From a phage, in the NCBI GenBank assembly GCA_032298335.1, contig GCA_032298335.1_4702.1: a stretch of DNA of 43,865 bases; one strand, given 5' to 3'. The position numbers and the translations under genes were made by a program. The notes beneath the pieces are model-generated. The model saw nothing but the letters and a program-made list of their open reading frames with translations. It was not told the origin of the DNA and did not search any database. Of the stretch, positions 16,481-43,675 are shown one piece after another (position 1 is the stretch's first letter; every line of letters begins with the position of its first letter).

Positions 16481-17480
16481 GCTTCGCAGCTTGTACAAAG
16501 ACTCCGAGGTACTTGATGCAATCGAGCAAGCTACCGACGAGAAAGGTAATGTTAATTACAATGAGATGGCACGTGTATTATCGTGTCACCCTGTGGGTAA
16601 GAAGATTACCCGCCAGTTGGCTCGATACTGGCATGGTCAATTCAAGAAGACCAAGAAGAATGGTGATTATTACCAGACCCTTCTGCAAGAAGATAAGCGT
16701 ATCAAAGAAGAGCGTAAGCTCAGGACTCCTGACCGCTACGAGGATTTGGCTATTGTACCATTGCCTGACTCACCTCATCGAAGTGTACTGGTAATCCCTG
16801 ATACTCATGCACCTTATGAGCATCCAGATACCTTAGAGTTCCTTGCAGCAGTCGCGGCACGTTACCGTCCAGACACAGTGGTACACCTAGGAGATGAGGC
16901 AGACAAACATGCCTTGTCATTCCACGATTCGGACCCAAATCTGGATAGTGCTGGCATGGAGTTAGAGAAGGCTCGTATCTTCATGCACAAATTGCACAAG
17001 ATGTTCCCTGTGATGCGCCTGTGTCACTCCAACCACGGCTCTATGCACTTCCGTAAGGCAAGCGCCAAGGGCATCCCTGTGCAATACCTGCGCACCTACC
17101 GTGAAGTCTTTTTCCCAAATGGAGGTGGCGACCAGTGGGGTTGGCAGCATACACATGTTCTTGAGTTGCCGAATGGTGAACAAGTGGCATTCAAGCATCA
17201 ACCTGCTGGCTCTGTCCTAGCAGATGCAGCGCATGAGCGTATGAACCTTGTGTGTGGTCACTTGCACGGTAAGATGTCTGTGGAGTACGCACGTAATACA
17301 CATGAACAGTATTGGGCTGTGCAAGGTGGCTGCTTAATTGATGAGTCATCCCGTGCATTTGCCTATGGGCGTGAGTCTAAATACAAGCCAGCATTAGGTT
17401 GTGTGGTTATTCTGGAGGGTGTACCTCATATTGTCCCGATGCAAACCAATAGCGACAACCGTTGGATTGGCAAGATTTAG
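16449..17480 (+). CDS. Calcineurin-like metallophosphoesterase
   Basis: Ordered motifs DTH (in VIPDTHAPY), GDEAD, SNHG and CGHLHG follow the DxH / GDxxD / GNH / GHxH pattern. Start is uncertain: ATG at 16449, or TTG at 16473 with an AGGAGG ribosome-binding site. Confidence 0.75.
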   Translation: MQERRRLKLGKLRSLYKDSEVLDAIEQATDEKGNVNYNEMARVLSCHPVGKKITRQLARYWHGQFKKTKKNGDYYQTLLQEDKRIKEERKLRTPDRYEDLAIVPLPDSPHRSVLVIPDTHAPYEHPDTLEFLAAVAARYRPDTVVHLGDEADKHALSFHDSDPNLDSAGMELEKARIFMHKLHKMFPVMRLCHSNHGSMHFRKASAKGIPVQYLRTYREVFFPNGGGDQWGWQHTHVLELPNGEQVAFKHQPAGSVLADAAHERMNLVCGHLHGKMSVEYARNTHEQYWAVQGGCLIDESSRAFAYGRESKYKPALGCVVILEGVPHIVPMQTNSDNRWIGKI

Positions 17481-17495
17481 TTGACACTATAGAAC
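17475..17495 (+). promoter_or_regulatory. Phage RNA polymerase promoter variant (ATTTAGTTGACACTATAGAAC)
   Basis: Closer to the SP6 form (ATTTAGGTGACACTATAGAAG); overlaps the phosphoesterase stop codon. Confidence 0.7.
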
Positions 17496-18084: not shown

Positions 18085-18258
18085 ATGGAAGGTAAACTGT
18101 ATAGAGGGTACTTCGGTAACTTATATAAAGTAAGCTCTCGCGGTTTTGTATTGACCTCTGATGATGAAGGTGCAATGTGGCACCTAAGTGCATATGGTTC
18201 TAACTTAGCACACTTTAAAGAGGCAATAGTCAAAGGTGTGATGAAGGAGGTGAAATGA
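18085..18258 (+). CDS. Small hypothetical protein (57 aa)
   Basis: GAGGA ribosome-binding site; stop overlaps the ligase start (ATGA). Confidence 0.45.
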   Translation: MEGKLYRGYFGNLYKVSSRGFVLTSDDEGAMWHLSAYGSNLAHFKEAIVKGVMKEVK

Positions 18259-19202
18259 ACATCTTCCAATTCCTAGGTCTTCCAGAAGACCACCGCAATC
18301 ATCCATTCATGCTGGTGAAGCATCGCGGTGAAGTTCCTGAGAAGAAACTTACTTTTCCATGTTATGCACAGGTGAAACGAGATGGAATATTCAGTGCTGT
18401 TGTGGTGCGCAATGATGGTGCTGTTGCCATCTTTGGTCGTACTGGTAAGAAGCTCGCAAATGTTGAATCCTTGGAAAAGACATTTAGTGTATTTCCTGTC
18501 GGGTTGTATCTTGGTGAGTTGCAATCTATGGCTGTTGATGTTTATCTTGAAGCTCTGTCAGGAGTGGTAAACCCTAATCGTACAGAGCCACTTGACTTCA
18601 TAGGCCAGCAGATTAAAGACAACCTGTATATCGACTTCTTCGATATGTTAACTATTAAGGCATTCCATGATGGATTCACTGATGTTTCTTATCTCAAACG
18701 TTACGATGCTTTACATCGCCGCATCGGCGCTCATCTTAGCGGGTACAACGCTATCCTTCCTATTACTCCTTGCCATAATGAGCGAGAAGTTGAAGCGTTT
18801 GCGCAAGAGCAGATAGACGCAGGCCGAGAAGGTGCGGTATTTAAACTTGACGTGGAGTACGAAAGTGGGCACAAAGGCTATCGTCAAACGAAGATCGTTC
18901 GTATGGTATCTTACGACCTCACCTGTATTGGGTGGGAGGAAGGAAAAGGTAAGTATAAAGGTAAAGTAGCTAACCTCATTTTCAAATGGAAAGGAGGCAA
19001 GTCTATTAAGGCTATGCTGGGCCGTGGCTGGTCACATGAGGATGCAGCCCAAATGTATCACGATATTAAGCACGGTGGCGAACTGAACGTCATTGGGAAG
19101 ATCTTCGCTGTCAAGGCGTTGCAGGAATCTAGCAAGGGAGTCCTGAGACTTCCCAAGGTTTCTGAATTACGCCACGATAAGGAGGTTCCTGATGTTTATT
19201 GA
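18255..19202 (+). CDS. ATP-dependent DNA ligase
   Basis: KxDG adenylation motif (AQVKRDGIFS) and a later EGAVFK block analogous to T7 ligase EGLIVK; strong ribosome-binding site. Confidence 0.85.
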   Translation: MNIFQFLGLPEDHRNHPFMLVKHRGEVPEKKLTFPCYAQVKRDGIFSAVVVRNDGAVAIFGRTGKKLANVESLEKTFSVFPVGLYLGELQSMAVDVYLEALSGVVNPNRTEPLDFIGQQIKDNLYIDFFDMLTIKAFHDGFTDVSYLKRYDALHRRIGAHLSGYNAILPITPCHNEREVEAFAQEQIDAGREGAVFKLDVEYESGHKGYRQTKIVRMVSYDLTCIGWEEGKGKYKGKVANLIFKWKGGKSIKAMLGRGWSHEDAAQMYHDIKHGGELNVIGKIFAVKALQESSKGVLRLPKVSELRHDKEVPDVY

Positions 19203-19317
19203 TTTGAACGAAAAACAGCTTGAATTGTTAATAGAAGCCATTGAGCAATACTATTACATGTGTGGCTATCAGTCAGAAGAATTAGACTCCTTATATTCAC
19301 AACTAAAAGGAGGTTAA
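19192..19317 (+). CDS. Small hypothetical protein (41 aa)
   Basis: AAGGAGG ribosome-binding site; overlaps the ligase 3' end. Confidence 0.4.
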   Translation: MFIDLNEKQLELLIEAIEQYYYMCGYQSEELDSLYSQLKGG

Positions 19318-19319
19318 TT

Positions 19320-19517
19320 ATGTCTTTTGATTCTATGAAGGCAACTCGTGCTGTTGAGGTAGCAGAGGCCATCTTCGAAACTCTATCCTGTGGCATGGAA
19401 GTGCCATATACTTTACTGGCTGATGCAGAAGAACTTGGTCTTTCTGTAGAAGCTATCCAAGAGAAGGTTGACGAATTATATGGTACAGACGAAGAAGAAA
19501 CCGACGATTTCATTTGA
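19320..19517 (+). CDS. Small acidic hypothetical protein (65 aa)
   Basis: AAAGGAGG ribosome-binding site; ends EEETDDFI. Confidence 0.5.
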   Translation: MSFDSMKATRAVEVAEAIFETLSCGMEVPYTLLADAEELGLSVEAIQEKVDELYGTDEEETDDFI

Positions 19518-19527
19518 AGGAATGGAG

Positions 19528-19650
19528 ATGCTTGAGATGATTCTCAAGCCTTCTTCTCCTAAGGTGACTAAGACTCATGAAGAGTTAATCGTTGATGAGG
19601 TTAAGCGTTACATCATGGATTGTGTCAGAGCACAACTGGTGATCCAATGA
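19528..19650 (+). CDS. Small hypothetical protein (about 40 aa)
   Basis: Short ORF whose stop overlaps the acetyltransferase start; start codon ambiguous (19522 or 19528). Confidence 0.3.
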   Translation: MLEMILKPSSPKVTKTHEELIVDEVKRYIMDCVRAQLVIQ

Positions 19651-20108
19651 TACGTCCAGCTTCCTTCCTAGATATTCCTGAGATTATAAACCTTGGGAAT
19701 AAATATGTGGAAGAGGAAGTCAAGGTTGTAGCCCACCACTCAGCCTCATGGAATGCAGAACAAAGTGCACATAACCTTTGTGCATCTCTTAGTAGAGAAG
19801 ATTTATTCCTATGGGTTGCTGTAGATGAAGGGCAGATTGTAGGGTTCCTGTGGGCTGGCTGTCACGAGTTGGCCCCTTGGACACCTGTAAGAGTTGCCTC
19901 TGACATTCTCTTTTATATTATACCAGAGAGGCGAGGAACACTTCTTGGTATGCGTCTCATCAAAGCCCTAAAGCAATGGGCTAGTGATAATGAATGCTCT
20001 GAGGTTCGCCTGTCTATCGCCTCTGGTATTAATGAAGAACGTGTCGGACGTATGTATAAGCGACTTGGCTTTGAACCGTTTGGCACTGTGTATAACATGA
20101 AGTTCTAA
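19647..20108 (+). CDS. GNAT-family N-acetyltransferase
   Basis: RRGTLLGMRLIKAL ... SEVRLSI ... YKRLGF fits the GNAT acetyl-CoA-binding pattern. Confidence 0.7.
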   Translation: MIRPASFLDIPEIINLGNKYVEEEVKVVAHHSASWNAEQSAHNLCASLSREDLFLWVAVDEGQIVGFLWAGCHELAPWTPVRVASDILFYIIPERRGTLLGMRLIKALKQWASDNECSEVRLSIASGINEERVGRMYKRLGFEPFGTVYNMKF

Positions 20109-20117
20109 GGAGATAAC

Positions 20118-20327
20118 ATGGGTGTTGTAAAGAAAGCATTTAAGGCTATCGGTCTTGCTCAAGATGCACCACGTATTGAAGCCAAAGTACCAGCACAGCA
20201 GCTTGAGCGTAATCCTGAGACTGAAGCTGAAGATATTCAAATTGGTGCAGGTGGTGATGATGCGACTGCATCTGCAAAAGGTAAGCGCGGCCTTGTCCGT
20301 CCGGTAGCTTCTAGCTTGAAGGTGTGA
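20118..20327 (+). CDS. Small Gly/Ala-rich protein, possible minor virion protein (69 aa)
   Basis: Strong ribosome-binding site; sits immediately upstream of the portal gene where T7 carries small virion genes. Confidence 0.5.
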   Translation: MGVVKKAFKAIGLAQDAPRIEAKVPAQQLERNPETEAEDIQIGAGGDDATASAKGKRGLVRPVASSLKV

Positions 20328-20328
20328 T

Positions 20329-21879
20329 ATGAAACAGAGCACAGATTTGGAGTATGGAGGTAAGAGATCTAAGATACCTAAGCTATGGGAGAAGTTCTCC
20401 ACTAAACGTAGCTCTTTCCTTGATAGGGCGAAGCATTACTCCAAATTAACCTTGCCCTATCTGATGAATGACAAAGGTGATAACGAGACTTCGCAGAATG
20501 GATGGCAAGGTGTAGGTGCTCAGGCAACTAATCATCTAGCCAACAAGCTAGCGCAAGTACTATTCCCTGCACAGCGTTCCTTCTTCCGTGTAGACTTAAC
20601 TGCACAAGGTGAGAAGGTTCTTAATCAGCGTGGCCTGAAGAAGACAGAGCTAGCTACCATCTTCGCTCAAGTGGAAACACGGGCAATGAAAGAGTTAGAG
20701 CAACGTCAATTCCGGCCTGCTGTAGTAGAAGCATTTAAGCATCTTATTGTTGCTGGCAGCTGTATGCTATACAAGCCGAGCAAAGGTGCAATCAGTGCTA
20801 TCCCAATGCATCACTACGTAGTTAACCGTGACACCAATGGCGACCTGTTAGACATTATCTTACTGCAAGAGAAAGCCTTACGCACCTTTGACCCAGCTAC
20901 ACGTGCTGTAGTAGAGGTTGGCCTGAAAGGTAAGAAGTGCAAGGAAGATGACAGCATTAAGCTGTACACACATGCTAAGTATCTTGGTGATGGATTTTGG
21001 GAACTCAAGCAGTCTGCTGATGATATCCCTGTGGGTAAGGTGAGTAAAATCAAATCAGAAAAGCTACCTTTCACCCCATTAACTTGGAAGCGAAGCTATG
21101 GTGAGGATTGGGGTCGCCCTCTTGCAGAGGATTACTCCGGTGATTTATTCGTTATCCAATTCTTATCTGAAGCGGTTGCCCGTGGTGCTGCGCTGATGGC
21201 AGATATCAAGTACCTGATTCGTCCGGGTGCTCAAACTGATGTTGACCACTTTGTTAACTCTGGCACTGGTGAGGTTGTCACTGGTGTAGAAGAAGACATC
21301 CATATTGTACAGTTAGGTAAGTACGCAGACCTCACACCTATTAGCGCGGTTCTAGAGGTATACACTCGCCGTATCGGTGTTGTCTTTATGATGGAGACAA
21401 TGACACGCCGTGACGCCGAACGTGTTACTGCTGTAGAAATCCAGCGAGATGCGTTAGAGATTGAGCAGAACATGGGTGGTGTATACTCCCTCTTTGCTAC
21501 TACTATGCAATCGCCAGTAGCGATGTGGGGTCTGCTGGAGGCAGGGGAGTCCTTCACTAGTGACCTAGTAGACCCTGTGATTATCACAGGTATTGAAGCT
21601 TTAGGACGCATGGCTGAGTTGGATAAACTGGCTAACTTTGCCCAGTATATGTCACTGCCATTACAATGGCCTGAGCCTGTCCTAGCTGCTGTGAAATGGC
21701 CTGACTATATGGATTGGGTGCGTGGTCAAATCTCTGCTGAACTGCCGTTCCTTAAATCGGCTGAAGAGATGGCACAAGAACAGGAAGCACAGATGCAAGC
21801 ACAGCAAGCACAGATGCTTGAAGAAGGTGTGGCTAAGGCCGTGCCGGGTGTAATTCAACAAGAACTTAAGGAGGCGTAA
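20329..21879 (+). CDS. Portal (head-to-tail connector) protein
   Basis: 516 aa; NGWQGVGAQATNHLANKLAQVLFP parallels T7 gp8 TPWQAVGARGLNNLASKLMLALFP. Confidence 0.92.
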   Translation: MKQSTDLEYGGKRSKIPKLWEKFSTKRSSFLDRAKHYSKLTLPYLMNDKGDNETSQNGWQGVGAQATNHLANKLAQVLFPAQRSFFRVDLTAQGEKVLNQRGLKKTELATIFAQVETRAMKELEQRQFRPAVVEAFKHLIVAGSCMLYKPSKGAISAIPMHHYVVNRDTNGDLLDIILLQEKALRTFDPATRAVVEVGLKGKKCKEDDSIKLYTHAKYLGDGFWELKQSADDIPVGKVSKIKSEKLPFTPLTWKRSYGEDWGRPLAEDYSGDLFVIQFLSEAVARGAALMADIKYLIRPGAQTDVDHFVNSGTGEVVTGVEEDIHIVQLGKYADLTPISAVLEVYTRRIGVVFMMETMTRRDAERVTAVEIQRDALEIEQNMGGVYSLFATTMQSPVAMWGLLEAGESFTSDLVDPVIITGIEALGRMAELDKLANFAQYMSLPLQWPEPVLAAVKWPDYMDWVRGQISAELPFLKSAEEMAQEQEAQMQAQQAQMLEEGVAKAVPGVIQQELKEA

Positions 21880-22799
21880 TGTCTTTCTCATTTACTGAAC
21901 CGTCAACCACTCACCCCACTGCTGAAGAGGGTCCGGTAGAAACCAAGGAGGTAACAACTGATGCTGCTACTACTGATGCTCCTGCTGACGCTGGCACTGC
22001 TGTACAAGATGACAATGCTGGTGCACAACCTACTGAAGACACCGGAGGAGAAGCTTCTGGACAGCCTTCAGAAAAAGGAGACAATGGCGGAGAGAATGGT
22101 GAACCTAAGCCAGATGATACCACGACCGACACTGAGGAAGTGCAATACTTCTTCGGAGAACATGAAGTAACAGTAGACATCCCACAGGATGTAACTGACA
22201 GCCTTAAAGAGAAAGGCATTGATGCCAAGCAGGTTGCCAAGGAACTCTATTCCAAAGGTGGCAAGTTTGAACTGTCAGATGCAACCAAGCAGAAATTGTA
22301 TGATGCTTTTGGCAAGTTTGCGGTAGATGCTTACCTGTCAGGTCTTAAGGCTCAAAATGAAGCCTTCTTCCTGAAAGAAGCCAACGCAGCTAAAGAGTTG
22401 GAAGCAGCTAACACCCAACGCTTCTCTGATGTTTCTAAGGAAATTGGTGGCGAAGAAGGTTGGTCCCGTCTTGAGGAGTGGGCGCTTGAAACCCTATCCG
22501 ATGACGAACTCACGGCATTCAATGCGGTGATGGAGTCTGGCAACCAGTACCTCCAGCAGTACGCTGTGCGTGAACTGGAGAGCCGCCGTAAGGCTGCACA
22601 GGGTGATGACAAACCAAACCTGATTGAACCCTCTGCACCTGCTGCTGCATCTGAAGATAATGGCCCACTCTCTCGTGAGCAGTACCTGCGTGAGATGATG
22701 ACTCTTAGCTCTCGCTTCGGTACAGACAAGAAAGCTGCTGCTGAGTATCAGGCTAAACTGGATGCTCGCCGTCGTGCGGGGATGGCTCGCGGACTCTAA
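21879..22799 (+). CDS. Capsid assembly scaffolding protein
   Basis: Acidic, low-complexity N-terminus and alpha-helical remainder; lies between the portal and capsid genes; ATG overlaps the portal stop. Confidence 0.8.
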   Translation: MSFSFTEPSTTHPTAEEGPVETKEVTTDAATTDAPADAGTAVQDDNAGAQPTEDTGGEASGQPSEKGDNGGENGEPKPDDTTTDTEEVQYFFGEHEVTVDIPQDVTDSLKEKGIDAKQVAKELYSKGGKFELSDATKQKLYDAFGKFAVDAYLSGLKAQNEAFFLKEANAAKELEAANTQRFSDVSKEIGGEEGWSRLEEWALETLSDDELTAFNAVMESGNQYLQQYAVRELESRRKAAQGDDKPNLIEPSAPAAASEDNGPLSREQYLREMMTLSSRFGTDKKAAAEYQAKLDARRRAGMARGL

Positions 22800-22804
22800 T
22801 CAGT

Positions 22805-22825
22805 ATTTACTGGACACTATAGAAG
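22805..22825 (+). promoter_or_regulatory. Phage RNA polymerase promoter upstream of the capsid gene
   Basis: Exact consensus ATTTACTGGACACTATAGAAG. Confidence 0.85.
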
Positions 22826-24084: not shown

Positions 24085-24092
24085 CACCTATG

Positions 24093-24125
24093 CCCTATCT
24101 ACCTTGCGTAGGTAGGGTTCTTTTT
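24093..24125 (+). terminator. Intrinsic terminator after the capsid gene
   Basis: 10-bp stem CCCTATCTAC / GTAGGTAGGG (one G-U pair), loop CTTGC, then TTCTTTTT. Confidence 0.8.
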
Positions 24126-24138
24126 GTTAGGAGGATTC

Positions 24139-24876
24139 ATGCCTGTAATTAGACAAACCAGTAAATTAGGACATATGATGGAAGATGTGGCCTTCCAGAT
24201 TATTGATAGTAAGCTGGAAGCGGTAAACTTGTGTATGCGAGCTATTGGTCGTGAGGGTGTGGATTCCCTCGACTCAGGGGACTTGGACGCAGAAGATGCA
24301 AGCAAAATGATCGACATCGTATCCCAGCGGTTCCAGTACAACAAAGGAGGTGGCTGGTGGTTCAATCGTGAACCAAACTGGCAACTTGCACCAGACACTA
24401 ACGGTGAAGTTAATTTACCTAACAACTGCCTAGCAGTATTGCAGTGTTATGCTTTAGGTGAAAAGAAAGTACCTATGACTATGCGAGCAGGTAAGCTCTA
24501 CTCTACTTGGAGTCACACCTTTGATATGCGTAAGCATGTTAATGCTAATGGTATGATTCGTCTTACCTTACTCACCTTACTACCCTACGAGCATCTACCT
24601 ACAAGTGTAATGCAGGCTATTGCCTATCAAGCTGCTGTAGAGTTTATTGTGTCTAAGGATGCAGATCAGACTAAGCTAGCCACTGCGCAGCAGATAGCCA
24701 CTCAGCTTCTTATGGATGTACAATCTGAGCAAATGTCACAGAAGCGATTAAACATGCTGGTACATAACCCCACTCAGCGTCAGTTTGGTATCATGGCTGG
24801 TGGCTCTCAGAATGTACCTGCTTACTCTCATTCACCTTATGAGAGTTGGGCGCTCCGTCCGTGGGAGGATCGTTAA
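24139..24876 (+). CDS. Tail tubular protein A (gp11-like)
   Basis: Follows the capsid gene; AGGAGG ribosome-binding site; W.FN.E pattern as in T7 gp11. Confidence 0.75.
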   Translation: MPVIRQTSKLGHMMEDVAFQIIDSKLEAVNLCMRAIGREGVDSLDSGDLDAEDASKMIDIVSQRFQYNKGGGWWFNREPNWQLAPDTNGEVNLPNNCLAVLQCYALGEKKVPMTMRAGKLYSTWSHTFDMRKHVNANGMIRLTLLTLLPYEHLPTSVMQAIAYQAAVEFIVSKDADQTKLATAQQIATQLLMDVQSEQMSQKRLNMLVHNPTQRQFGIMAGGSQNVPAYSHSPYESWALRPWEDR

Positions 24877-27278
24877 TGGAAGTACAAGGTTCATTAGGTA
24901 GACAAATCCAAGGGATTAGCCAGCAGCCGCCAGCGGTACGCTTGGATGGTCAGTGCACAGCTATGGTTAATATGATACCTGATGTAGTGAATGGTACTCA
25001 ATCACGCATGGGTACAACTCATATTGCAAAGATACTTGATGCTGGGACTGATGACATGGCTATTCATCATTATCGCAGAGGTGATGGTGATGAAGAGTAT
25101 TTCTTCACGTTGAAGAAAGGACAAGTTCCTGAGATATTTGATAAGTATGGGCGCAAATGTAATGTGACTTCACAAGATGCACCTATGACCTACCTCTCTG
25201 AGGTTGTTAATCCAAGGGAAGATGTACAATTCATGACGATAGCTGATGTTACTTTCATGCTTAATCGTAGGAAAGTAGTTAAAGCTAGTAACAGGAAGTC
25301 ACCTAAAGTTGGAAACAAAGCCATTGTGTTTTGTGCGTATGGTCAATATGGTACATCTTATTCCATTGTAATTAATGGGACCAACGCTGCTAGTTTTAAA
25401 ACACCGGATGGTGGAAGTGCAGACCATGTTGAACAAATTCGAACTGAACGTATCACTTCTGAATTGTACTCTAAGTTGCAGCAATGGAGCGGTGTGAGTG
25501 ACTATGAAATACAAAGAGACGGTACTAGTATATTTATCGAGAGACGGGATGGTGCTAGCTTTACAATAACAACCACCGATGGTGCAAAAGGTAAGGACTT
25601 AGTGGCTATCAAGAATAAAGTTAGCTCTACTGACCTACTCCCTTCTCGTGCGCCTGCTGGTTATAAAGTACAAGTGTGGCCTACTGGCAGCAAACCTGAG
25701 TCTCGTTACTGGCTGCAAGCTGAGCCTAAAGAGGGAAACCTTGTGTCTTGGAAAGAAACAATAGCTGCTGATGTATTACTTGGGTTTGATAAAGGCACAA
25801 TGCCTTACATTATTGAACGTACAGATATCATCAACGGCATAGCTCAATTCAAGATAAGACAAGGTGATTGGGAAGATCGTAAAGTAGGGGATGACTTGAC
25901 TAACCCTATGCCCTCTTTTATTGATGAGGAGGTACCCCAGACAATAGGTGGAATGTTCATGGTGCAGAACCGCCTATGCTTTACAGCAGGTGAAGCGGTT
26001 ATTGCTTCTCGTACATCATACTTCTTCGATTTCTTTCGTTATACGGTTATCTCTGCATTGGCAACTGACCCATTTGATATTTTCTCAGATGCTAGTGAAG
26101 TCTACCAGCTAAAAAATGCAGTGACCTTAGATGGCGCTACCGTGTTGTTCTCTGATAAGTCACAATTCATACTGCCAGGCGATAAGCCTTTAGAGAAGTC
26201 AAATGCACTGCTTAAGCCTGTTACAACATTTGAAGTGAACAATAAAGTGAAGCCAGTAGTAACTGGTGAATCGGTAATGTTTGCCACTAATGATGGTTCT
26301 TACTCTGGTGTACGAGAGTTCTATACAGACTCTTATAGTGACACTAAGAAGGCACAAGCAATCACAAGTCATGTGAATAAACTCATCGAAGGTAACATTA
26401 CCAACATGGCAGCAAGCACCAATGTCAACAGGTTACTTGTCACTACCGATAAGTATCGTAACATAATCTACTGCTACGATTGGTTATGGCAAGGAACAGA
26501 CCGTGTACAATCAGCATGGCATGTATGGAAGTGGCCTATAGGTACAAAGGTGCGAGGTATGTTTTATTCTGGTGAATTACTTTACCTGCTCCTTGAGCGA
26601 GGAGATGGCGTATATCTGGAGAGGATGGACATGGGTGATGCACTAACCTACGGTTTGAATGACCGCATCAGAATGGATAGGCAAGCAGAGTTAGTCTTCA
26701 AGTATTTTAAAGCAGAAGATGAATGGGTATCTGAACCGCTCCCTTGGACTCCTACTAACCCAGAACTTTTAGATTGCATCTTAATCGAGGGTTGGGATTC
26801 ATATATTGGTGGCTCTTTCTTATTCAAGTACAACCCTAGTGACAATACTTTGTCTACAACCTTTGATATGTATGATGACAGTCATGTAAAAGCGAAGGTT
26901 ATTGTTGGTCAGATTTACCCTCAAGAGTTTGAACCTACGCCTGTGGTTATCAGAGACAATCAAGACCGTGTATCCTACATTGATGTACCAGTTGTAGGAT
27001 TGGTTCACCTTAATCTTGACATGTACCCCGATTTCTCCGTAGAAGTTAAGAATGTGAAGAGTGGTAAAGTACGTAGAGTATTAGCGTCAAACCGTATAGG
27101 TGGTGCTCTCAATAATACAGTAGGCTATGTTGAACCGAGAGAAGGTGTCTTCAGATTTCCACTGAGAGCTAAGAGCACGGATGTTGTTTATCGTATTATT
27201 GTAGAGTCACCTCACACATTCCAGCTTCGTGATATTGAGTGGGAAGGGAGCTACAATCCAACCAAAAGGAGGGTCTAA
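24876..27278 (+). CDS. Tail tubular protein B (gp12-like)
   Basis: 800 aa ORF translationally coupled (TAATG) to the tail tube A gene; size and position match T7 gp12. Confidence 0.8.
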   Translation: MEVQGSLGRQIQGISQQPPAVRLDGQCTAMVNMIPDVVNGTQSRMGTTHIAKILDAGTDDMAIHHYRRGDGDEEYFFTLKKGQVPEIFDKYGRKCNVTSQDAPMTYLSEVVNPREDVQFMTIADVTFMLNRRKVVKASNRKSPKVGNKAIVFCAYGQYGTSYSIVINGTNAASFKTPDGGSADHVEQIRTERITSELYSKLQQWSGVSDYEIQRDGTSIFIERRDGASFTITTTDGAKGKDLVAIKNKVSSTDLLPSRAPAGYKVQVWPTGSKPESRYWLQAEPKEGNLVSWKETIAADVLLGFDKGTMPYIIERTDIINGIAQFKIRQGDWEDRKVGDDLTNPMPSFIDEEVPQTIGGMFMVQNRLCFTAGEAVIASRTSYFFDFFRYTVISALATDPFDIFSDASEVYQLKNAVTLDGATVLFSDKSQFILPGDKPLEKSNALLKPVTTFEVNNKVKPVVTGESVMFATNDGSYSGVREFYTDSYSDTKKAQAITSHVNKLIEGNITNMAASTNVNRLLVTTDKYRNIIYCYDWLWQGTDRVQSAWHVWKWPIGTKVRGMFYSGELLYLLLERGDGVYLERMDMGDALTYGLNDRIRMDRQAELVFKYFKAEDEWVSEPLPWTPTNPELLDCILIEGWDSYIGGSFLFKYNPSDNTLSTTFDMYDDSHVKAKVIVGQIYPQEFEPTPVVIRDNQDRVSYIDVPVVGLVHLNLDMYPDFSVEVKNVKSGKVRRVLASNRIGGALNNTVGYVEPREGVFRFPLRAKSTDVVYRIIVESPHTFQLRDIEWEGSYNPTKRRV

Positions 27279-28000
27279 TGGCTATAGGTTCAGCCGTTAT
27301 GGCTGGTATGTCTTCTATTGGTAGCATGTTTGCAGGCAGTGGTGCAGCAGCCGCTGCTGGAGGTGCTGCCGCAGGTGGCGGAGGCTTGCTAGGTTCTCTA
27401 GGTGGCTTCCTAAGCGGCTCTACTGCTGGCTTCTCTAATGCTGGGCTTCTTGGTGCTGGCCTTCAAGGTTTAGGCTTGATTGGTGATCTCTTTGGTGGAA
27501 GTGATGAAGCCAAGGCAATGAAGAAAGCACAAGAAGAACAGTGGCGGCAGCAACTTATTGCTACACAAGAAGCATACAAAACAGTAGCAGATGCAGAGCG
27601 TTCTGCTGCTAAACAATATCATGCAGATGCAATAAGCAATCAGGCTTCACTACTACAGCAGCGAGCACAGGTTGCATTACTAGCAGGTGCTACTGGTACT
27701 GGTGGTAACTCTGTAACTTCTATGCTGAATGACTTAGCAGCAGAGGGCGGGAGGAACCAGAGTACAATTATTGATAACTATGAGAATCAGAAGATTAACT
27801 TCACCAATCAGCTTAAGTCTATCCAGCGAGGTGGACAGATGCAGATGCGTGAGTTTAAGAAGCCTTCTGCCGTGAGCACCTTGGTGCAAGGTATACCGAG
27901 TCTGGCATCTGCCTATGTAACAGGTAGTAAGTCCGGCATGGCTTTAGGTAAAGCTTTAACTGATTCTCGTACATATTCATCTGGAACAAGAGGTATTTAA
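27278..28000 (+). CDS. Internal virion protein, Gly/Ala-rich
   Basis: Low-complexity N-terminal region; translationally coupled within the tail/core module. Confidence 0.7.
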   Translation: MAIGSAVMAGMSSIGSMFAGSGAAAAAGGAAAGGGGLLGSLGGFLSGSTAGFSNAGLLGAGLQGLGLIGDLFGGSDEAKAMKKAQEEQWRQQLIATQEAYKTVADAERSAAKQYHADAISNQASLLQQRAQVALLAGATGTGGNSVTSMLNDLAAEGGRNQSTIIDNYENQKINFTNQLKSIQRGGQMQMREFKKPSAVSTLVQGIPSLASAYVTGSKSGMALGKALTDSRTYSSGTRGI

Positions 28001-43213: not shown

Positions 43214-43675
43214 ATGGAAGTTTGGAGGCCTATTGCTGGTATACCAGATTACATGGTTTCCTCCTTTGGTCGTGTTAGATCTCATAAAAGAGGTAAGGTT
43301 ACTATACTAAACCCTCCGCACGACAAAGGGGGTTATCGTAATGTTGTGCTACGTGTTAATGGTGAAAAGATAAATCGCAAGGTACATAGGCTTGTGGCAG
43401 AGGCTTTCTTACCTAATCCTCACGGTTTACCTCAAGTAAATCACAAGGATGAAGTAAGAGACAATAATCATGTAAGTAATCTGGAGTGGTGTGATTGTGC
43501 ATACAACGTAGATTACTCTCAAGCAGCTACTTATACTGTGATGTGCCCTAAAGGTAATATCTTAGTAGTAAGGAATGTGGCTAAGTTTTGTAGGGAAAAC
43601 GGATTAAGCAGTGGTTCTTTTACAGATATGCTTAAGGGGAGACGTAAGCAACATAAGGGTTATCGCTTAGTGTAA
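43214..43675 (+). CDS. HNH homing endonuclease (second copy)
   Basis: HRLVAEAF ... NP ... PQVNHKD ... NLEW HNH motif; C-terminal FCRENGL ... KG(R)RKQHKG block shared with the 8175-8663 protein; AT-rich. Confidence 0.85.
   Translation: MEVWRPIAGIPDYMVSSFGRVRSHKRGKVTILNPPHDKGGYRNVVLRVNGEKINRKVHRLVAEAFLPNPHGLPQVNHKDEVRDNNHVSNLEWCDCAYNVDYSQAATYTVMCPKGNILVVRNVAKFCRENGLSSGSFTDMLKGRRKQHKGYRLV

What the first reader, a model, noticed from the sequence alone, without database searches (positions are those of the whole stretch)
19647..20108. GNAT acetyltransferase immediately upstream of the virion module
A GNAT-fold acetyltransferase is not part of the canonical T7 gene set. Its substrate could be a virion protein, a host protein, or aminoacyl-tRNA or antibiotic-like molecules as in toxin-type GNATs. 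Its position, coupled to small ORFs just before the portal gene, suggests a role at the start of late expression.
Basis: partly seen in the sequence, partly recalled or inferred. Interest (0 to 1): 0.5.

Follow-up and report, generated by a model that had tools for sequence, protein, structure and literature searches.

The report
Conserved phage acetyltransferase gene before portal
This is a real, already annotated acetyltransferase gene (gp27 of coliphage K1E, gp28 of SP6) that SP6-like phages carry just before their head-assembly genes; nobody has tested what it does, and it sits where phage T7 has its poorly understood "host range" gene 7.

Summary
Window 19647-20108 (+) encodes a 153-aa GNAT-fold protein: it scores above Pfam's cut-offs, the AlphaFold model has pLDDT 91.6, and dN/dS is 0.06-0.14.

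The window is a near-complete Vectrevirus genome (K1E/K1-5 group, SP6 supergroup). The ORF is the orthologue of K1E gp27, K1-5 gp27 and SP6 gp28, all labelled "acetyltransferase" in RefSeq. So the gene is not new.

It belongs to phrog_1249, found in about 250 podophage genomes. It fills a conserved slot: GNAT, then a T7 gp7.3-like small virion protein, then portal, scaffold and capsid. LUZ19 Rac fills that slot in phiKMV-like phages, and gene 7 fills it in T7. I predict T7 gp7 has a GNAT fold that Pfam does not detect.

Function is untested. My best guess, at about 0.4, is a non-virion protein acetyltransferase tied to particle assembly or infectivity. The main rival, at about 0.3, is Rac-like acetylation of host proteins. 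Toxin-type and antibiotic-resistance roles are unsupported.

The parts
19647..20108 (+). GNAT acetyltransferase CDS, 153 aa; orthologue of K1E gp27, K1-5 gp27 and SP6 gp28; member of phrog_1249
19923..19958 (+). Codons 93-104 (P-E-R-R-G-T-L-L-G-M-R-L): the beta4-alpha3 loop, GNAT motif A, which binds the pyrophosphate of acetyl-CoA. R96 and G97 are invariant in 39 homologues down to 24% identity. The sequence is R-G-x-x-x-G/A/S, not the textbook Q/R-x-x-G-x-G/A.
   Evidence: Alignments; secondary structure
20013..20072 (+). Codons 123-142 (S-I-A-S-G-I-N-E-E-R-V-G-R-M-Y-K-R-L-G-F): beta5-alpha4, GNAT motif B. S123, S126 and G127 are nearly invariant. N129 is invariant among close homologues. 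Tyr137 is Phe in several members.
19480..19650 (+). Small ORF (K1E gp26 equivalent, about 56 aa, phrog_6507). Its TGA stop overlaps the GNAT start codon (ATGA), which implies translational coupling.
19320..19517 (+). Small ORF (K1E gp25 equivalent, 65 aa, phrog_5860) with a strong Shine-Dalgarno sequence AAGGAGG
19192..19317 (+). 41-aa ORF filling the gap between the ligase gene and gp25. An ORF of the same length and position is annotated in phage NTNC80A. This stretch varies among Vectreviruses.
20118..20327 (+). 69-aa ORF (K1E gp28 equivalent), homologous to the T7 gp7.3 family of small ejected tail/nozzle-assembly proteins (phrog_1320 E 1.8e-11; phrog_9033 E 2.2e-12). AAGGAG Shine-Dalgarno sequence directly after the GNAT stop codon.
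20329..21879 (+). Portal (head-tail connector) gene, PF12236 E 5e-87
21879..22799 (+). Scaffolding protein gene, assigned by synteny with K1E gene 30
18255..19202 (+). ATP-dependent DNA ligase gene, the last DNA-metabolism gene upstream
17478..17492 (+). Nearest upstream SP6-type phage promoter core (TAGTTGACACTATAG). It starts the transcription unit that contains the GNAT gene.
   Evidence: 12 matches against 1.24 expected by chance
22808..22822 (+). Next phage promoter core (TACTGGACACTATAG), upstream of the capsid gene. No promoter match lies between 17492 and 22808.

Best explanation
SHOWN. The ORF is a functional GNAT-fold gene, the orthologue of K1E gp27 and SP6 gp28. The phage RNA polymerase transcribes it as part of one unit running from the kinase and ligase genes through portal and scaffold. 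Its start codon overlaps the stop of the preceding small ORF. A gp7.3-like gene follows after 9 bases. It occupies the conserved 'gene 7' slot of the T7 supergroup: GNAT, gp7.3-like, portal, scaffold, capsid.

INFERRED (identity about 0.95; mechanism about 0.4). It binds acetyl-CoA through the R96-G97...G101 loop and the S126-G-I-N129 segment. It transfers acetyl to an amino group, with the invariant Asp86 on beta4 as the likely general base. It acts as a non-structural protein acetyltransferase whose job is tied to particle assembly or infectivity. The likely substrate is one of the small ejected virion proteins encoded next to it (the gp7.3-like protein, or the internal virion proteins), or another assembly partner, so that progeny particles are fully infective.

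On this view it is the SP6-group counterpart of T7 gene 7 ('host range'). It would also correspond to the acetyltransferase-like, non-virion 'IVP-A' gene that other podophages carry next to their ejection-protein genes.
For: 1. Identity and integrity.

2. Slot conservation. GNAT, then a small protein, then portal, is found in K1E, SP6, NTNC80A, Era103, Alpheus, a metagenomic contig with a 37%-identical homologue, and AS51, where no ORF is annotated in the 185-nt gap before the portal gene. The same order holds for the Rac-like family in LUZ19, gh-1, J8-65, Sphaerotilus R1 and, with an HNH insertion, phi-2. In T7, gene 7 lies between 6.7 and 7.3.

3. The same sequence family (phrog_1249) sits between tail tube B and internal virion protein B in roseophage SIO1 (PHROG E 2e-36; phmmer E 1e-12 to the window ORF; locus). 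ZP6 carries an acetyltransferase gene at the same place, not tested for family here. So in both arrangements the gene lies inside the morphogenesis block, directly before a gene for a small ejected protein.

4. Published work reads that second slot as the T7 gp13 (IVP-A) slot. It describes gp13 as required for morphogenesis, absent from virions, and HHpred-matching acetyltransferases (PMC4819975; PMC6775973).

5. The window has no other gp13-, gp7- or GNAT-like ORF.

6. The Rac-like 'gp7' and gp13 of phiPsa17 were not among the proteins detected in its virion proteome, which fits non-structural factors.

7. The family is conserved across phages of Escherichia, Salmonella, Klebsiella, Proteus, Erwinia, Vibrio, Pseudomonas, Roseobacter and Nostoc. 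That fits a phage-encoded partner better than a host-specific target.

8. A homology chain links the slot-7 proteins. Window family against Rac family: hhalign 93.9%, E 1.6e-7. The Rac-family HMM hits only phrog_1249 GNATs and T7 gp7 among 1144 ORFs. J8-65 GNAT against the T7 gp7 PHROG: E 2.2e-12. The T7 gp7 model has pLDDT 90.6, and all 50 listed Foldseek hits are GNAT-fold proteins.
Against: - No experiment exists on this protein or any phrog_1249 member. The SP6-type orthologue is listed as 'Unknown' in a genome paper.
- No acetylated virion protein has been reported for these phages in the papers I could search.
- The only homologue with biochemistry, Rac, acts on host proteins, not virion proteins.
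- The link to T7 gp13 is positional and from the literature only. My profile comparison of the window family with a 6-sequence gp13 alignment gave 4% probability, and the gp13 HMM hits nothing outside its own family.
- The chain to T7 gp7 rests on weak E-values (1e-2 to 1e-3), apart from the J8-65 to phrog_2746 step. No unrelated GNATs were in the test set to act as a control.
- 'Host range' for T7 gene 7 is an annotation label. I could not retrieve the underlying phenotype, and it would equally fit a host-directed function.
- The K1-5 reference genome carries a 22-aa duplication inside this gene. That hints at dispensability in laboratory culture, which would be odd for an essential assembly factor.
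Confidence: 0.4

Rival explanations
1. Rac-like host takeover. The enzyme acetylates host proteins (for example unfoldases, proteases or transcription factors) at the middle-to-late switch. [quoted passage not shown]
For: - Rac is a GNAT in the same slot, and its CDS overlaps the first structural gene.
- Rac needs its acetyl-CoA pocket and raises host protein acetylation.
- The window family and the Rac family are detectably homologous: hhalign 93.9%; PHROG cross-hits from 1.5e-5 to 1.7e-3; the Rac HMM picks the window ORF as its only hit with E below 0.5 among 413 window ORFs, at E 0.0025.
- From memory, not checked here: SP6-type phages have no recognised T7 gp0.7 or gp2 homologue.
Against: - Alpha cleavage is genus-specific even within Krylovirinae. 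The LKA1 homologue in the same position does not cause it.
- The window protein is not a member of Rac's family. BLASTP finds nothing, and it does not hit phrog_3986 at E<=0.01.
- The reported cleavage site (EEQ/EDE in the P. aeruginosa alpha linker) is, from memory, not present in E. coli RpoA.
- Host-takeover genes are usually lineage-specific and lie in early regions. This family is conserved across very different hosts and always sits among morphogenesis genes.
Confidence: 0.3
2. Counter-defence enzyme. It acetylates and inactivates a strain-specific host immunity protein, as the anti-CRISPR AcrVA5 does to Cas12a. The gene would then be conditionally required, giving a 'host range' phenotype.
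For: - Precedent of AcrVA5, cited in PMC7552054.
- The 'host range' label on T7 gene 7 in the same slot.
- An apparently tolerated 22-aa duplication in the K1-5 reference genome, which suggests the gene is dispensable on laboratory hosts.
Against: - Strong purifying selection and conservation from coliphages to roseophages and a Nostoc phage are unusual for anti-defence genes. Those typically turn over fast and cluster in early or accessory regions.
- There is no similarity to defence-related models.
- No direct comparison with AcrVA5 was made.
Confidence: 0.1
3. Small-molecule acetyltransferase. It acetylates polyamines (SSAT/SpeG-like), altering the counter-ion pool at the time of DNA packaging, or it detoxifies an aminoglycoside-like or amino-acid-analogue compound.
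For: Weak sequence and fold matches include diamine and polyamine acetyltransferases (2bei E 4e-4; DpA; SSAT1), AAC(6') enzymes and the ArsN1/phosphinothricin group. The family conserves acidic and aromatic residues (D9, E23/E24, D86, W69, W78, Y90), as expected for a cationic amine substrate.
Against: - All NCBIfam scores are far below the family cut-offs, for example ArsN1a 27.9 against 170 bits and AAC(6') group E 24.2 against 140.
- The PDB hits are generic across many GNAT subfamilies, with RimI ranked equally high.
- There is no obvious reason for such an enzyme to be locked in the morphogenesis block of phages from marine to enteric hosts.
Confidence: 0.1
4. Non-catalytic GNAT-fold assembly chaperone. 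The fold is used as a scaffold or chaperone for small virion proteins, and acetyl transfer is irrelevant.
For: In the proteins that share its slots, the motif-A loop is degenerate. The T7 gp7 family has no conserved R/Q-x-x-G-x-G/A, and its model lacks helix alpha4. The gp13 family has no conserved loop motif. In the window family, the Gly at position i+3 of motif A is replaced (Leu99), and Tyr137 is Phe in several members.
Against: R96 and G97 are invariant in 39 sequences down to 24% identity. N129 and the S-G-I-N segment are strongly conserved. The protein still scores above cut-off on three Pfam GNAT models, with full motif A-B coverage. This pattern is typical of active enzymes.
Confidence: 0.07
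5. Toxin-type GNAT (TacT/AtaT/ItaT-like) that acetylates aminoacyl-tRNA to block translation.
For: AtaT and another GNAT toxin appear among low-ranked fold matches of the T7 gp7 model, not of the window protein.
Against: - No toxin family appears among the Pfam, NCBIfam or PDB matches of the window protein.
- No antitoxin-like domain (RHH or DUF1778) is found in the two upstream small ORFs tested.
- Blocking translation while the structural genes are being expressed would harm the phage.
Confidence: 0.03

Closest known systems
K1E gp27 / K1-5 gp27 / SP6 gp28 'acetyltransferase' (phrog_1249), Molineuxvirinae
   Same: Direct orthologues: 94.8% (K1E) and 74.5% (SP6) amino-acid identity, and 98% with K1-5 outside its insertion. 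They share length (except K1-5), the ATGA-coupled start and the neighbouring genes.
   Different: Nothing material. The K1-5 reference copy has a 22-aa internal duplication that the window lacks. None of these proteins has been studied experimentally, as far as I could find.
[quoted passage not shown]
   Same: A small GNAT-fold protein in the same genomic slot: after the last non-structural gene, directly before a small virion protein and the portal gene. The families are related at profile level (hhalign 93.9%). Both probably depend on acetyl-CoA.
   Different: - It belongs to a different PHROG, with no pairwise BLAST similarity (about 17% identity in the profile alignment).
- The Rac family appears to lack the alpha4/motif B segment that the window protein keeps. 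This is a reading of the alignment, not a structural test.
- The Rac phenotype is restricted to the genus Phikmvvirus and to P. aeruginosa.
- The hosts and RNA polymerase linker sequences differ.
T7 gene 7 protein ('host range', phrog_2746)
   Same: It occupies the same position relative to 7.3, 8, 9 and 10. It is predicted here to have a GNAT fold (pLDDT 90.6; all 50 listed Foldseek PDB hits are GNAT-fold proteins). It is linked to the window family through the Rac-like family.
   Different: There is no direct sequence match to the window family (hhalign 0.7%) and no Pfam GNAT hit. The model lacks helix alpha4 and the motif-A loop is degenerate, so it may not be catalytic.
T7 gp13 / 'IVP-A' acetyltransferase-like morphogenesis factor of podophages (phrog_308, DUF2833; PMC4819975)
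   Same: A small, non-virion protein with acetyltransferase-like HHpred matches, encoded next to ejection-protein genes. The slot it occupies in T7 is filled in SIO1 by a member of the window's own family. SP6-type phages, including the window, have no gp13 gene.
   Different: No sequence relationship was detectable here. It lies at a different position in the genome. The gp13 family lacks a conserved acetyl-CoA loop motif.
Cellular GNATs: RimI, polyamine acetyltransferases (SSAT, DpA, SpeG), AAC(6')
   Same: Same fold, with TM-scores of 0.7-0.8. The motif A and motif B regions align.
   Different: Identity is only 15-23%. All scores against curated equivalog models are far below their cut-offs. 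No subfamily stands out, so substrate cannot be inferred.

Membership tests
GNAT superfamily (Pfam PF00583 / PF13508 / PF13673) | Significant match to the family HMMs above the curated gathering scores | tested here: met
   39.3 bits against 20.7, 38.7 against 27, and 26.1 against 23.6
GNAT superfamily | Characteristic alpha/beta fold (beta1-alpha1-alpha2-beta2-beta3-beta4-alpha3-beta5-alpha4-beta6) | tested here: met
   The AF2 model has pLDDT 91.6, with elements E2-4, H7-28, H37-49, E53-60, E63-76, E79-91, H99-114, E119-121 and H130-139. The last strand is modelled with lower confidence. All 50 listed Foldseek PDB hits are GNAT-type acetyltransferases or homologues, with TM 0.7-0.8.
GNAT superfamily | Motif A pyrophosphate-binding loop Q/R-x-x-G-x-G/A after beta4 | tested here: inconclusive
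   The window has R96-G97-T-L-L-G101. R96 and G97 are invariant in 39 homologues, and position i+5 is G, A or S. The canonical Gly at i+3 is Leu or variable. The loop binds through backbone amides, so this variant is compatible with binding but does not prove it.
GNAT superfamily | Acetyl-CoA-dependent acyl transfer | not testable with these tools
   Needs a biochemical assay
phrog_1249 / K1E gp27-SP6 gp28 orthologous group | Full-length HMM match and high identity to named members | tested here: met
   phrog_1249 E 2e-54 over residues 1-152. Identity is 94.8% to K1E gp27 and 74.5% to SP6 gp28.
phrog_1249 / K1E gp27-SP6 gp28 orthologous group | Conserved neighbourhood: ligase, small ORFs, GNAT, about 65-70-aa ORF, portal, scaffold | tested here: met
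   Vibrio phage AS51 has the same order but no annotated small ORF before the portal gene.
Rac family (LUZ19 gp28, phrog_3986) | Sequence membership in the family | tested here: not met
   BLASTP gives no alignment. The window protein does not hit phrog_3986 at E<=0.01. Only superfamily-level relatedness is seen (hhalign 93.9%; HMM E 0.0025-0.007).
Rac family (LUZ19 gp28, phrog_3986) | Position directly upstream of the first small structural gene and the portal gene | tested here: met
   Searches compared
Rac family (LUZ19 gp28, phrog_3986) | Induces cleavage of the host RNA polymerase alpha subunit | not testable with these tools
   Needs an infection or expression experiment. The published work shows the trait is genus-specific.
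T7 gp13 / IVP-A (phrog_308, DUF2833) | Sequence membership in the family | tested here: not met
   hhalign 4% against a 6-sequence gp13 alignment. The gp13 HMM and phmmer find nothing in the window.
T7 gp13 / IVP-A (phrog_308, DUF2833) | Gene located between tail tubular protein B and internal virion protein B | tested here: not met
   In the window, the tail tube B gene (24846-27278) abuts the IVP-B gene (phrog_805) with no gene between them. SIO1, a member of the window's own PHROG, does sit in that slot.
Toxin-type GNATs (TacT/AtaT/ItaT/KacT) | Adjacent RHH/DUF1778-type antitoxin gene, and sequence similarity to the toxin families | tested here: not met
   The upstream small ORFs have no such domains. 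No toxin GNAT appears among the Pfam, NCBIfam or PDB hits of the window protein.
Resistance GNATs (AAC(6'), ArsN1, phosphinothricin acetyltransferase) | Score at or above the NCBIfam equivalog cut-off | tested here: not met
   Best scores are 27.9 bits against a cut-off of 170 (ArsN1a) and 24.2 against 140 (AAC(6') group E)
Anti-phage defence components (PADLOC) | Match to a defence-system model | tested here: not met
   The only hit is PDC-M11A at E 0.016 and 12 bits

The most novel reading that the evidence does not exclude
K1E gp27/SP6 gp28, LUZ19 Rac and T7 gp7 are diverged orthologues of one ancestral GNAT-fold gene. That gene has occupied the 'gene 7' slot, directly before gp7.3 and the portal gene, since the origin of the T7 supergroup. 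Its general role is to acetylate, or chaperone, small ejected virion proteins so that particles are infective on particular hosts. Rac's RNA polymerase cleavage would then be a lineage-specific side branch. This would give a mechanism for the decades-old 'host range' phenotype of T7 gene 7. It would also establish enzyme-mediated acetylation of virion components as a step in podophage assembly.
Probability: 0.25. Interest if true: 0.6.

Novelty: already known. Interest (0 to 1): 0.3.

Why it matters
The gene itself is ordinary, in the sense that it is known and annotated in reference genomes. What remains open is its function. A GNAT-fold gene sits in the assembly-gene block of T7-supergroup podophages and of the Zobellviridae phage SIO1. 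Only one distant member, Rac, has been studied, and its phenotype does not generalise.

K1E, K1-5 and SP6-type phages are used for phage therapy and capsule targeting. Knowing whether this enzyme conditions particle infectivity, shuts down the host or counters a defence would help in engineering them. It would also bear on the unexplained T7 genes 7 and 13. The link between T7 gp7 and the GNAT fold found here gives a concrete experiment to run.

Tried and rejected
- Antibiotic- or arsinothricin-resistance enzyme: NCBIfam hits are 5-10 times below the cut-offs. Rejected.
- Defence-system component: PADLOC gives nothing meaningful. Rejected.
- Toxin-antitoxin GNAT: no antitoxin domain and no toxin-family similarity. 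Rejected.
- Domain fusions as a clue to substrate: eight longer family members (173-385 aa) from the 1.84-billion-protein search contain only GNAT domains, and five appear to be tandem GNATs. Uninformative.
- Fold search for a specific subfamily: RimI, polyamine acetyltransferases, AAC(6') and uncharacterised GNATs all tie at E about 1e-9 to 1e-10. No substrate can be inferred.
- Direct homology to T7 gp13: not detectable with my shallow alignment. T7 gp13 alone weakly hits two spermidine acetyltransferases in the PDB (E 0.4), which agrees with the published HHpred statement but is not significant.
- The R-L-S-G-K-A stretch in T7 gp13 looked like a canonical motif A but is not conserved in the family. 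Discarded.
- hhalign of the Rac family against the T7 gp7 family was weak (3.8%, E 0.011), although the register matched. The link rests on HMMER against phrog_2746 (2.2e-12), BLASTP (1e-4) and the fold prediction.
- Literature: I found nothing on gp27 or gp28 function or essentiality, and no report of T7 gp7 as a GNAT. My text searches of the PhageMaP T7 essentiality preprint found nothing on genes 7 or 13. Kemp et al. 2005 is not in the library.
- A promoter immediately upstream of the GNAT: none found. The sigma-70-like and terminator-like hits in the region are at or near the levels seen in shuffled sequence.
Full report
**What is there**

The window is an almost complete genome of a K1E/K1-5-type coliphage (genus Vectrevirus, subfamily Molineuxvirinae, the SP6 supergroup). 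Bases 19000-20700 are 99.5% identical to Vectrevirus LI10P3 and 94.7% identical to K1E.

The flagged ORF runs from ATG 19647 to TAA 20108 on the + strand and encodes 153 aa. The mechanical ORF list begins it at TTG 19620. All aligned homologues start M-I/V-R, so ATG 19647 is the real start. That ATG overlaps the TGA of the preceding small ORF (ATGA), and the overlap is conserved in K1E, K1-5, NTNC80A and SP6.

Evidence that it is a GNAT:
- Three Pfam GNAT models score above their gathering cut-offs, with PF00583 at 39.3 against 20.7 bits.
- It matches phrog_1249 'acetyltransferase' at E 2e-54.
- An AlphaFold2 model built on 39 homologues has pLDDT 91.6 and GNAT topology.
- All 50 listed Foldseek PDB matches are GNAT-type acetyltransferases or homologues.
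- dN/dS against K1E, NTNC80A and SP6 is 0.06-0.14.

**It is a known gene**

RefSeq annotates the orthologues as 'acetyltransferase': K1E gene 27, K1-5 and SP6 gp28. tblastn finds the family in 250 phage records:
- at 60-99% identity in Escherichia, Salmonella, Klebsiella, Raoultella and Proteus SP6-like phages;
- at 24-43% identity in phages of Pectobacterium, Erwinia, Vibrio, Aeromonas, Pseudomonas syringae, Shewanella, Marinomonas, Roseobacter, Acinetobacter and Nostoc.

The records listed are podophage-sized genomes of about 35-58 kb. A profile search of 1.84 billion representative proteins gives 5864 hits at E<=1e-3, and most of the 150 best are about 150 aa long. I found no experimental work on any member. 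A genome paper lists the SP6-type orthologue as 'Unknown'.

**Acetyl-CoA site**

The protein aligns with SSAT2 and other solved GNATs across beta4-alpha3 and beta5-alpha4.
- Motif A reads R96-G97-T-L-L-G101.
- R96 and G97 are invariant in 39 homologues down to 24% identity.
- Position i+5 is G, A or S.
- The textbook Gly at i+3 is Leu or variable.
- The motif B segment S126-G-I-N129...Y137...G141-F is well conserved. Tyr137 is Phe in some members.
- Asp86 on beta4 is nearly invariant and is a plausible general base. This is inference.

Catalytic competence is likely but unproven.

**Transcription and coupling**

SP6-type promoter cores (consensus TACTGGACACTATAG) occur 12 times against 1.24 expected by chance. 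The ones flanking the gene are at 17478 and 22808, with none between.

The GNAT gene therefore lies inside one unit containing, in order:
- a nucleotide kinase gene;
- the ligase gene (18255-19202);
- a 41-aa ORF (19192-19317);
- gp25 (19320-19517);
- gp26 (19480-19650);
- the GNAT gene;
- gp28 (20118-20327);
- the portal gene (20329-21879);
- the scaffold gene (21879-22799).

All are abutting or overlapping. A strong terminator-like hairpin follows the capsid gene at 24092-24118. The gene is thus made together with early morphogenesis proteins, but it does not head a separate 'late' transcript.

**The slot is conserved, and that changes the interpretation**

The 69-aa ORF downstream matches the T7 gp7.3 family (phrog_1320, E 1.8e-11; T7 gp7.3 itself hits phrog_1320 at 1e-29). 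The local order is therefore GNAT / 7.3 / 8 (portal) / 9 (scaffold) / 10 (capsid), which is the T7 gene order with the GNAT in the place of gene 7.

The same arrangement holds for three groups:
- phrog_1249 members in SP6, NTNC80A, Era103, Pseudomonas phage Alpheus and a metagenomic contig. Vibrio phage AS51 has the same order, but with no small ORF annotated before the portal gene.
- A second GNAT family, phrog_3986, in LUZ19/phiKMV, gh-1 (a true T7-like phage, 6.7 / GNAT / 7.3 / 8), J8-65, Sphaerotilus phage R1 and phi-2.
- T7 itself, where gene 7 (133 aa, annotated 'host range') lies between 6.7 and 7.3.

The phiPsa17 annotators already call the Rac-like GNAT 'gp7' by position.

**Are the slot-7 proteins homologous?**

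The evidence in favour:
- Window family against Rac family: no pairwise BLAST hit, but hhalign gives 93.9% probability, E 1.6e-7 over 82 columns.
- Four of five phrog_3986 members tested hit phrog_1249 as their only 'acetyltransferase' PHROG, at 1.5e-5 to 1.7e-3. gh-1 did not.
- T7 gp7 belongs to phrog_2746. The J8-65 GNAT hits phrog_2746 at 2.2e-12 and the phi-2 GNAT at 1.5e-5.
- T7 gp7 hits phrog_3986 at 0.025.
- BLASTP of J8-65 against T7 gp7 gives E 1e-4.
- In a set of 1144 ORFs from all fetched loci, the Rac-family HMM hits, beyond itself, only phrog_1249 GNATs (9.8e-4 to 0.68, the window ORF at 6.9e-3) and T7 gp7 (7.6e-3). There are no other hits with E<=1.
- T7 gp7 has no Pfam match. 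An AlphaFold2 model built on 11 homologues has pLDDT 90.6 with the order beta1-alpha1-alpha2-beta2-beta3-beta4-alpha3-beta5-beta6. All 50 listed Foldseek PDB hits are GNAT-fold proteins, the best at E 8e-6 and TM up to 0.70.

The caveats:
- hhalign of the Rac family against the gp7 family was weak with shallow alignments (3.8%).
- My test sets contained no unrelated GNATs. Specificity within the superfamily is therefore supported only by the PHROG scans.

I conclude that T7 gp7 is very probably a GNAT-fold protein, lacking alpha4 and with a degenerate motif-A loop. The three families plausibly descend from one slot-7 gene. I found no report of T7 gp7 as a GNAT in the searchable literature.

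**The second slot**

Roseophage SIO1 (Zobellviridae) has a clear phrog_1249 member (E 2e-36; phmmer E 1e-12 to the window ORF). There it lies between the tail tube B-like gene and the internal virion protein genes. Alteromonas phage ZP6 has an acetyltransferase gene at the same place, whose family I did not test.

Hardies et al. (PMC4819975) describe this as the T7 gene 13 ('IVP-A') slot. They state three things:
- phiRIO-1-like phages carry an acetyltransferase-like non-structural gene there;
- T7 gp13 also matches acetyltransferases by HHpred;
- gp13 is required for morphogenesis but is not retained in virions.

Bischoff et al. equate the SIO1 GNAT with gp13 (PMC6775973).

I could not confirm a sequence link between gp13 (phrog_308) and the window family. 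hhalign gives 4%, the gp13 HMM has no cross-hits, and the only gp13 hits to PDB GNATs are at E 0.4. The window has no gp13 gene: the tail tube B gene abuts IVP-B, and no other ORF resembles gp7, gp13 or a GNAT. Neither the Rac-like gp7 nor gp13 was among the proteins detected in the phiPsa17 virion proteome.

**What it most likely does**

Two models fit.

Model A: a non-virion acetyltransferase tied to morphogenesis or infectivity. Support:
- The family always lies inside the assembly block.
- In both slot types it lies immediately before a gene for a small ejected protein.
- It is translationally coupled to its neighbours.
- It is conserved across phages of unrelated hosts.
- The occupants of the same slots in T7 carry 'host range' and morphogenesis labels.

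Model B: Rac-like acetylation of host proteins. Support:
- It has the only experimental precedent. [quoted passage not shown]

Against it:
- That phenotype is absent in the LKA1 homologue, so it is not the general function of slot-7 GNATs.

I rate model A at about 0.4 and model B at about 0.3. The remainder goes to counter-defence (0.1), small-molecule substrates (0.1), a non-catalytic chaperone (0.07) and a toxin-type role (0.03). None of these is shown. The shown facts are identity, fold, conservation, synteny and transcriptional context.

**Verdict**

This is a correct but unremarkable gene call. It is a known, annotated, conserved SP6-group gene whose function is still unknown. Its framing as a non-canonical addition to a T7 genome is wrong. 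The most useful outcome is the by-product: one GNAT-fold 'gene 7' slot shared by T7, phiKMV-like and SP6-like phages. That makes T7 gene 7 and K1E gp27 jointly testable.

Noticed in passing
L011 1631-2032 (T7 gene 7, NC_001604 19130-19531): T7 gp7 ('host range') has no Pfam match but is predicted to have a GNAT fold (AF2 pLDDT 90.6). All 50 listed Foldseek PDB hits are GNAT-fold proteins. The model lacks helix alpha4, and the acetyl-CoA loop is degenerate. It is linked by HMMER to the Rac-like family: J8-65 GNAT against phrog_2746 gives E 2.2e-12. I found no report of this in the searchable literature.
   Followed up: yes
L020 601-1128 (K1-5 reference genome, NC_008152 19630-20157): The K1-5 copy of this GNAT is 175 aa, not 153. 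A 66-bp partial tandem duplication inserts 22 aa (HHSASWNAEQSA repeated, plus a scrambled linker) into the alpha1-alpha2 loop. Either the loop tolerates this, or the gene is dispensable in laboratory culture, or it is a sequence artefact.
   Followed up: partly
L007 2974-3435 (roseophage SIO1): A clear member of the window's own GNAT family sits between the tail tube B-like gene and the internal virion protein genes (the T7 gene 13 slot), not before the portal gene. One sequence family therefore occupies two different morphogenesis slots in different podophage groups.
   Followed up: partly
window 19518-19560: A stable RNA hairpin (-21.1 kcal/mol, z -2.98, 1 of 200 shuffles as good) lies inside the gp26 coding region, just after the gp25 stop codon and about 90 nt upstream of the GNAT start. 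It is identical in K1E, K1-5 and NTNC80A, so there is no covariation to test, and it is absent from SP6. It could be an RNase III site or a translational-coupling element.
   Followed up: partly
window 19192-19319: The stretch between the ligase gene and gp25 holds a 41-aa ORF, annotated only in some relatives. It is a variable spot. Many Vectreviruses align only from window position 19320 onward, and three records (phage 6949, EEc2 and LI10P3 OZ035807) carry about 310 extra bases somewhere within 19000-20700.
   Followed up: no
window 43214-43675: A 153-aa HNH homing-endonuclease ORF (phrog_59, E 1.4e-41) lies at the right end of the genome. It is probably a mobile insertion.
   Followed up: no
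window 17478-17492 and 1265-1279: The promoter core that heads the GNAT-containing unit is a variant (TAGTTGACACTATAG) of the common TACTGGACACTATAG. One further match lies on the minus strand at 1265-1279 (TAGGTTACATTATAG), which is unexpected in a genome transcribed entirely rightward.
   Followed up: no
window 27239-28000: The listed 253-aa ORF for internal virion protein B matches its PHROG (phrog_805) only from residue 67 onward. The GTG start overlaps the tail tube B gene, so the true start is probably further downstream. No gp13-like domain is hidden in the N-terminal extension.
   Followed up: partly
L014 2808-3224 (T7 gene 13) and alignment A5: T7 gp13 contains R-L-S-G-K-A, a perfect match to GNAT motif A, but the stretch is not conserved in T3, Kayfunavirus, Pseudomonas, Vibrio or Ralstonia homologues. 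A motif-B-like segment (N-x-x-H-I-R-F-L-K-x-x-G-A-x-F) is conserved.
   Followed up: partly
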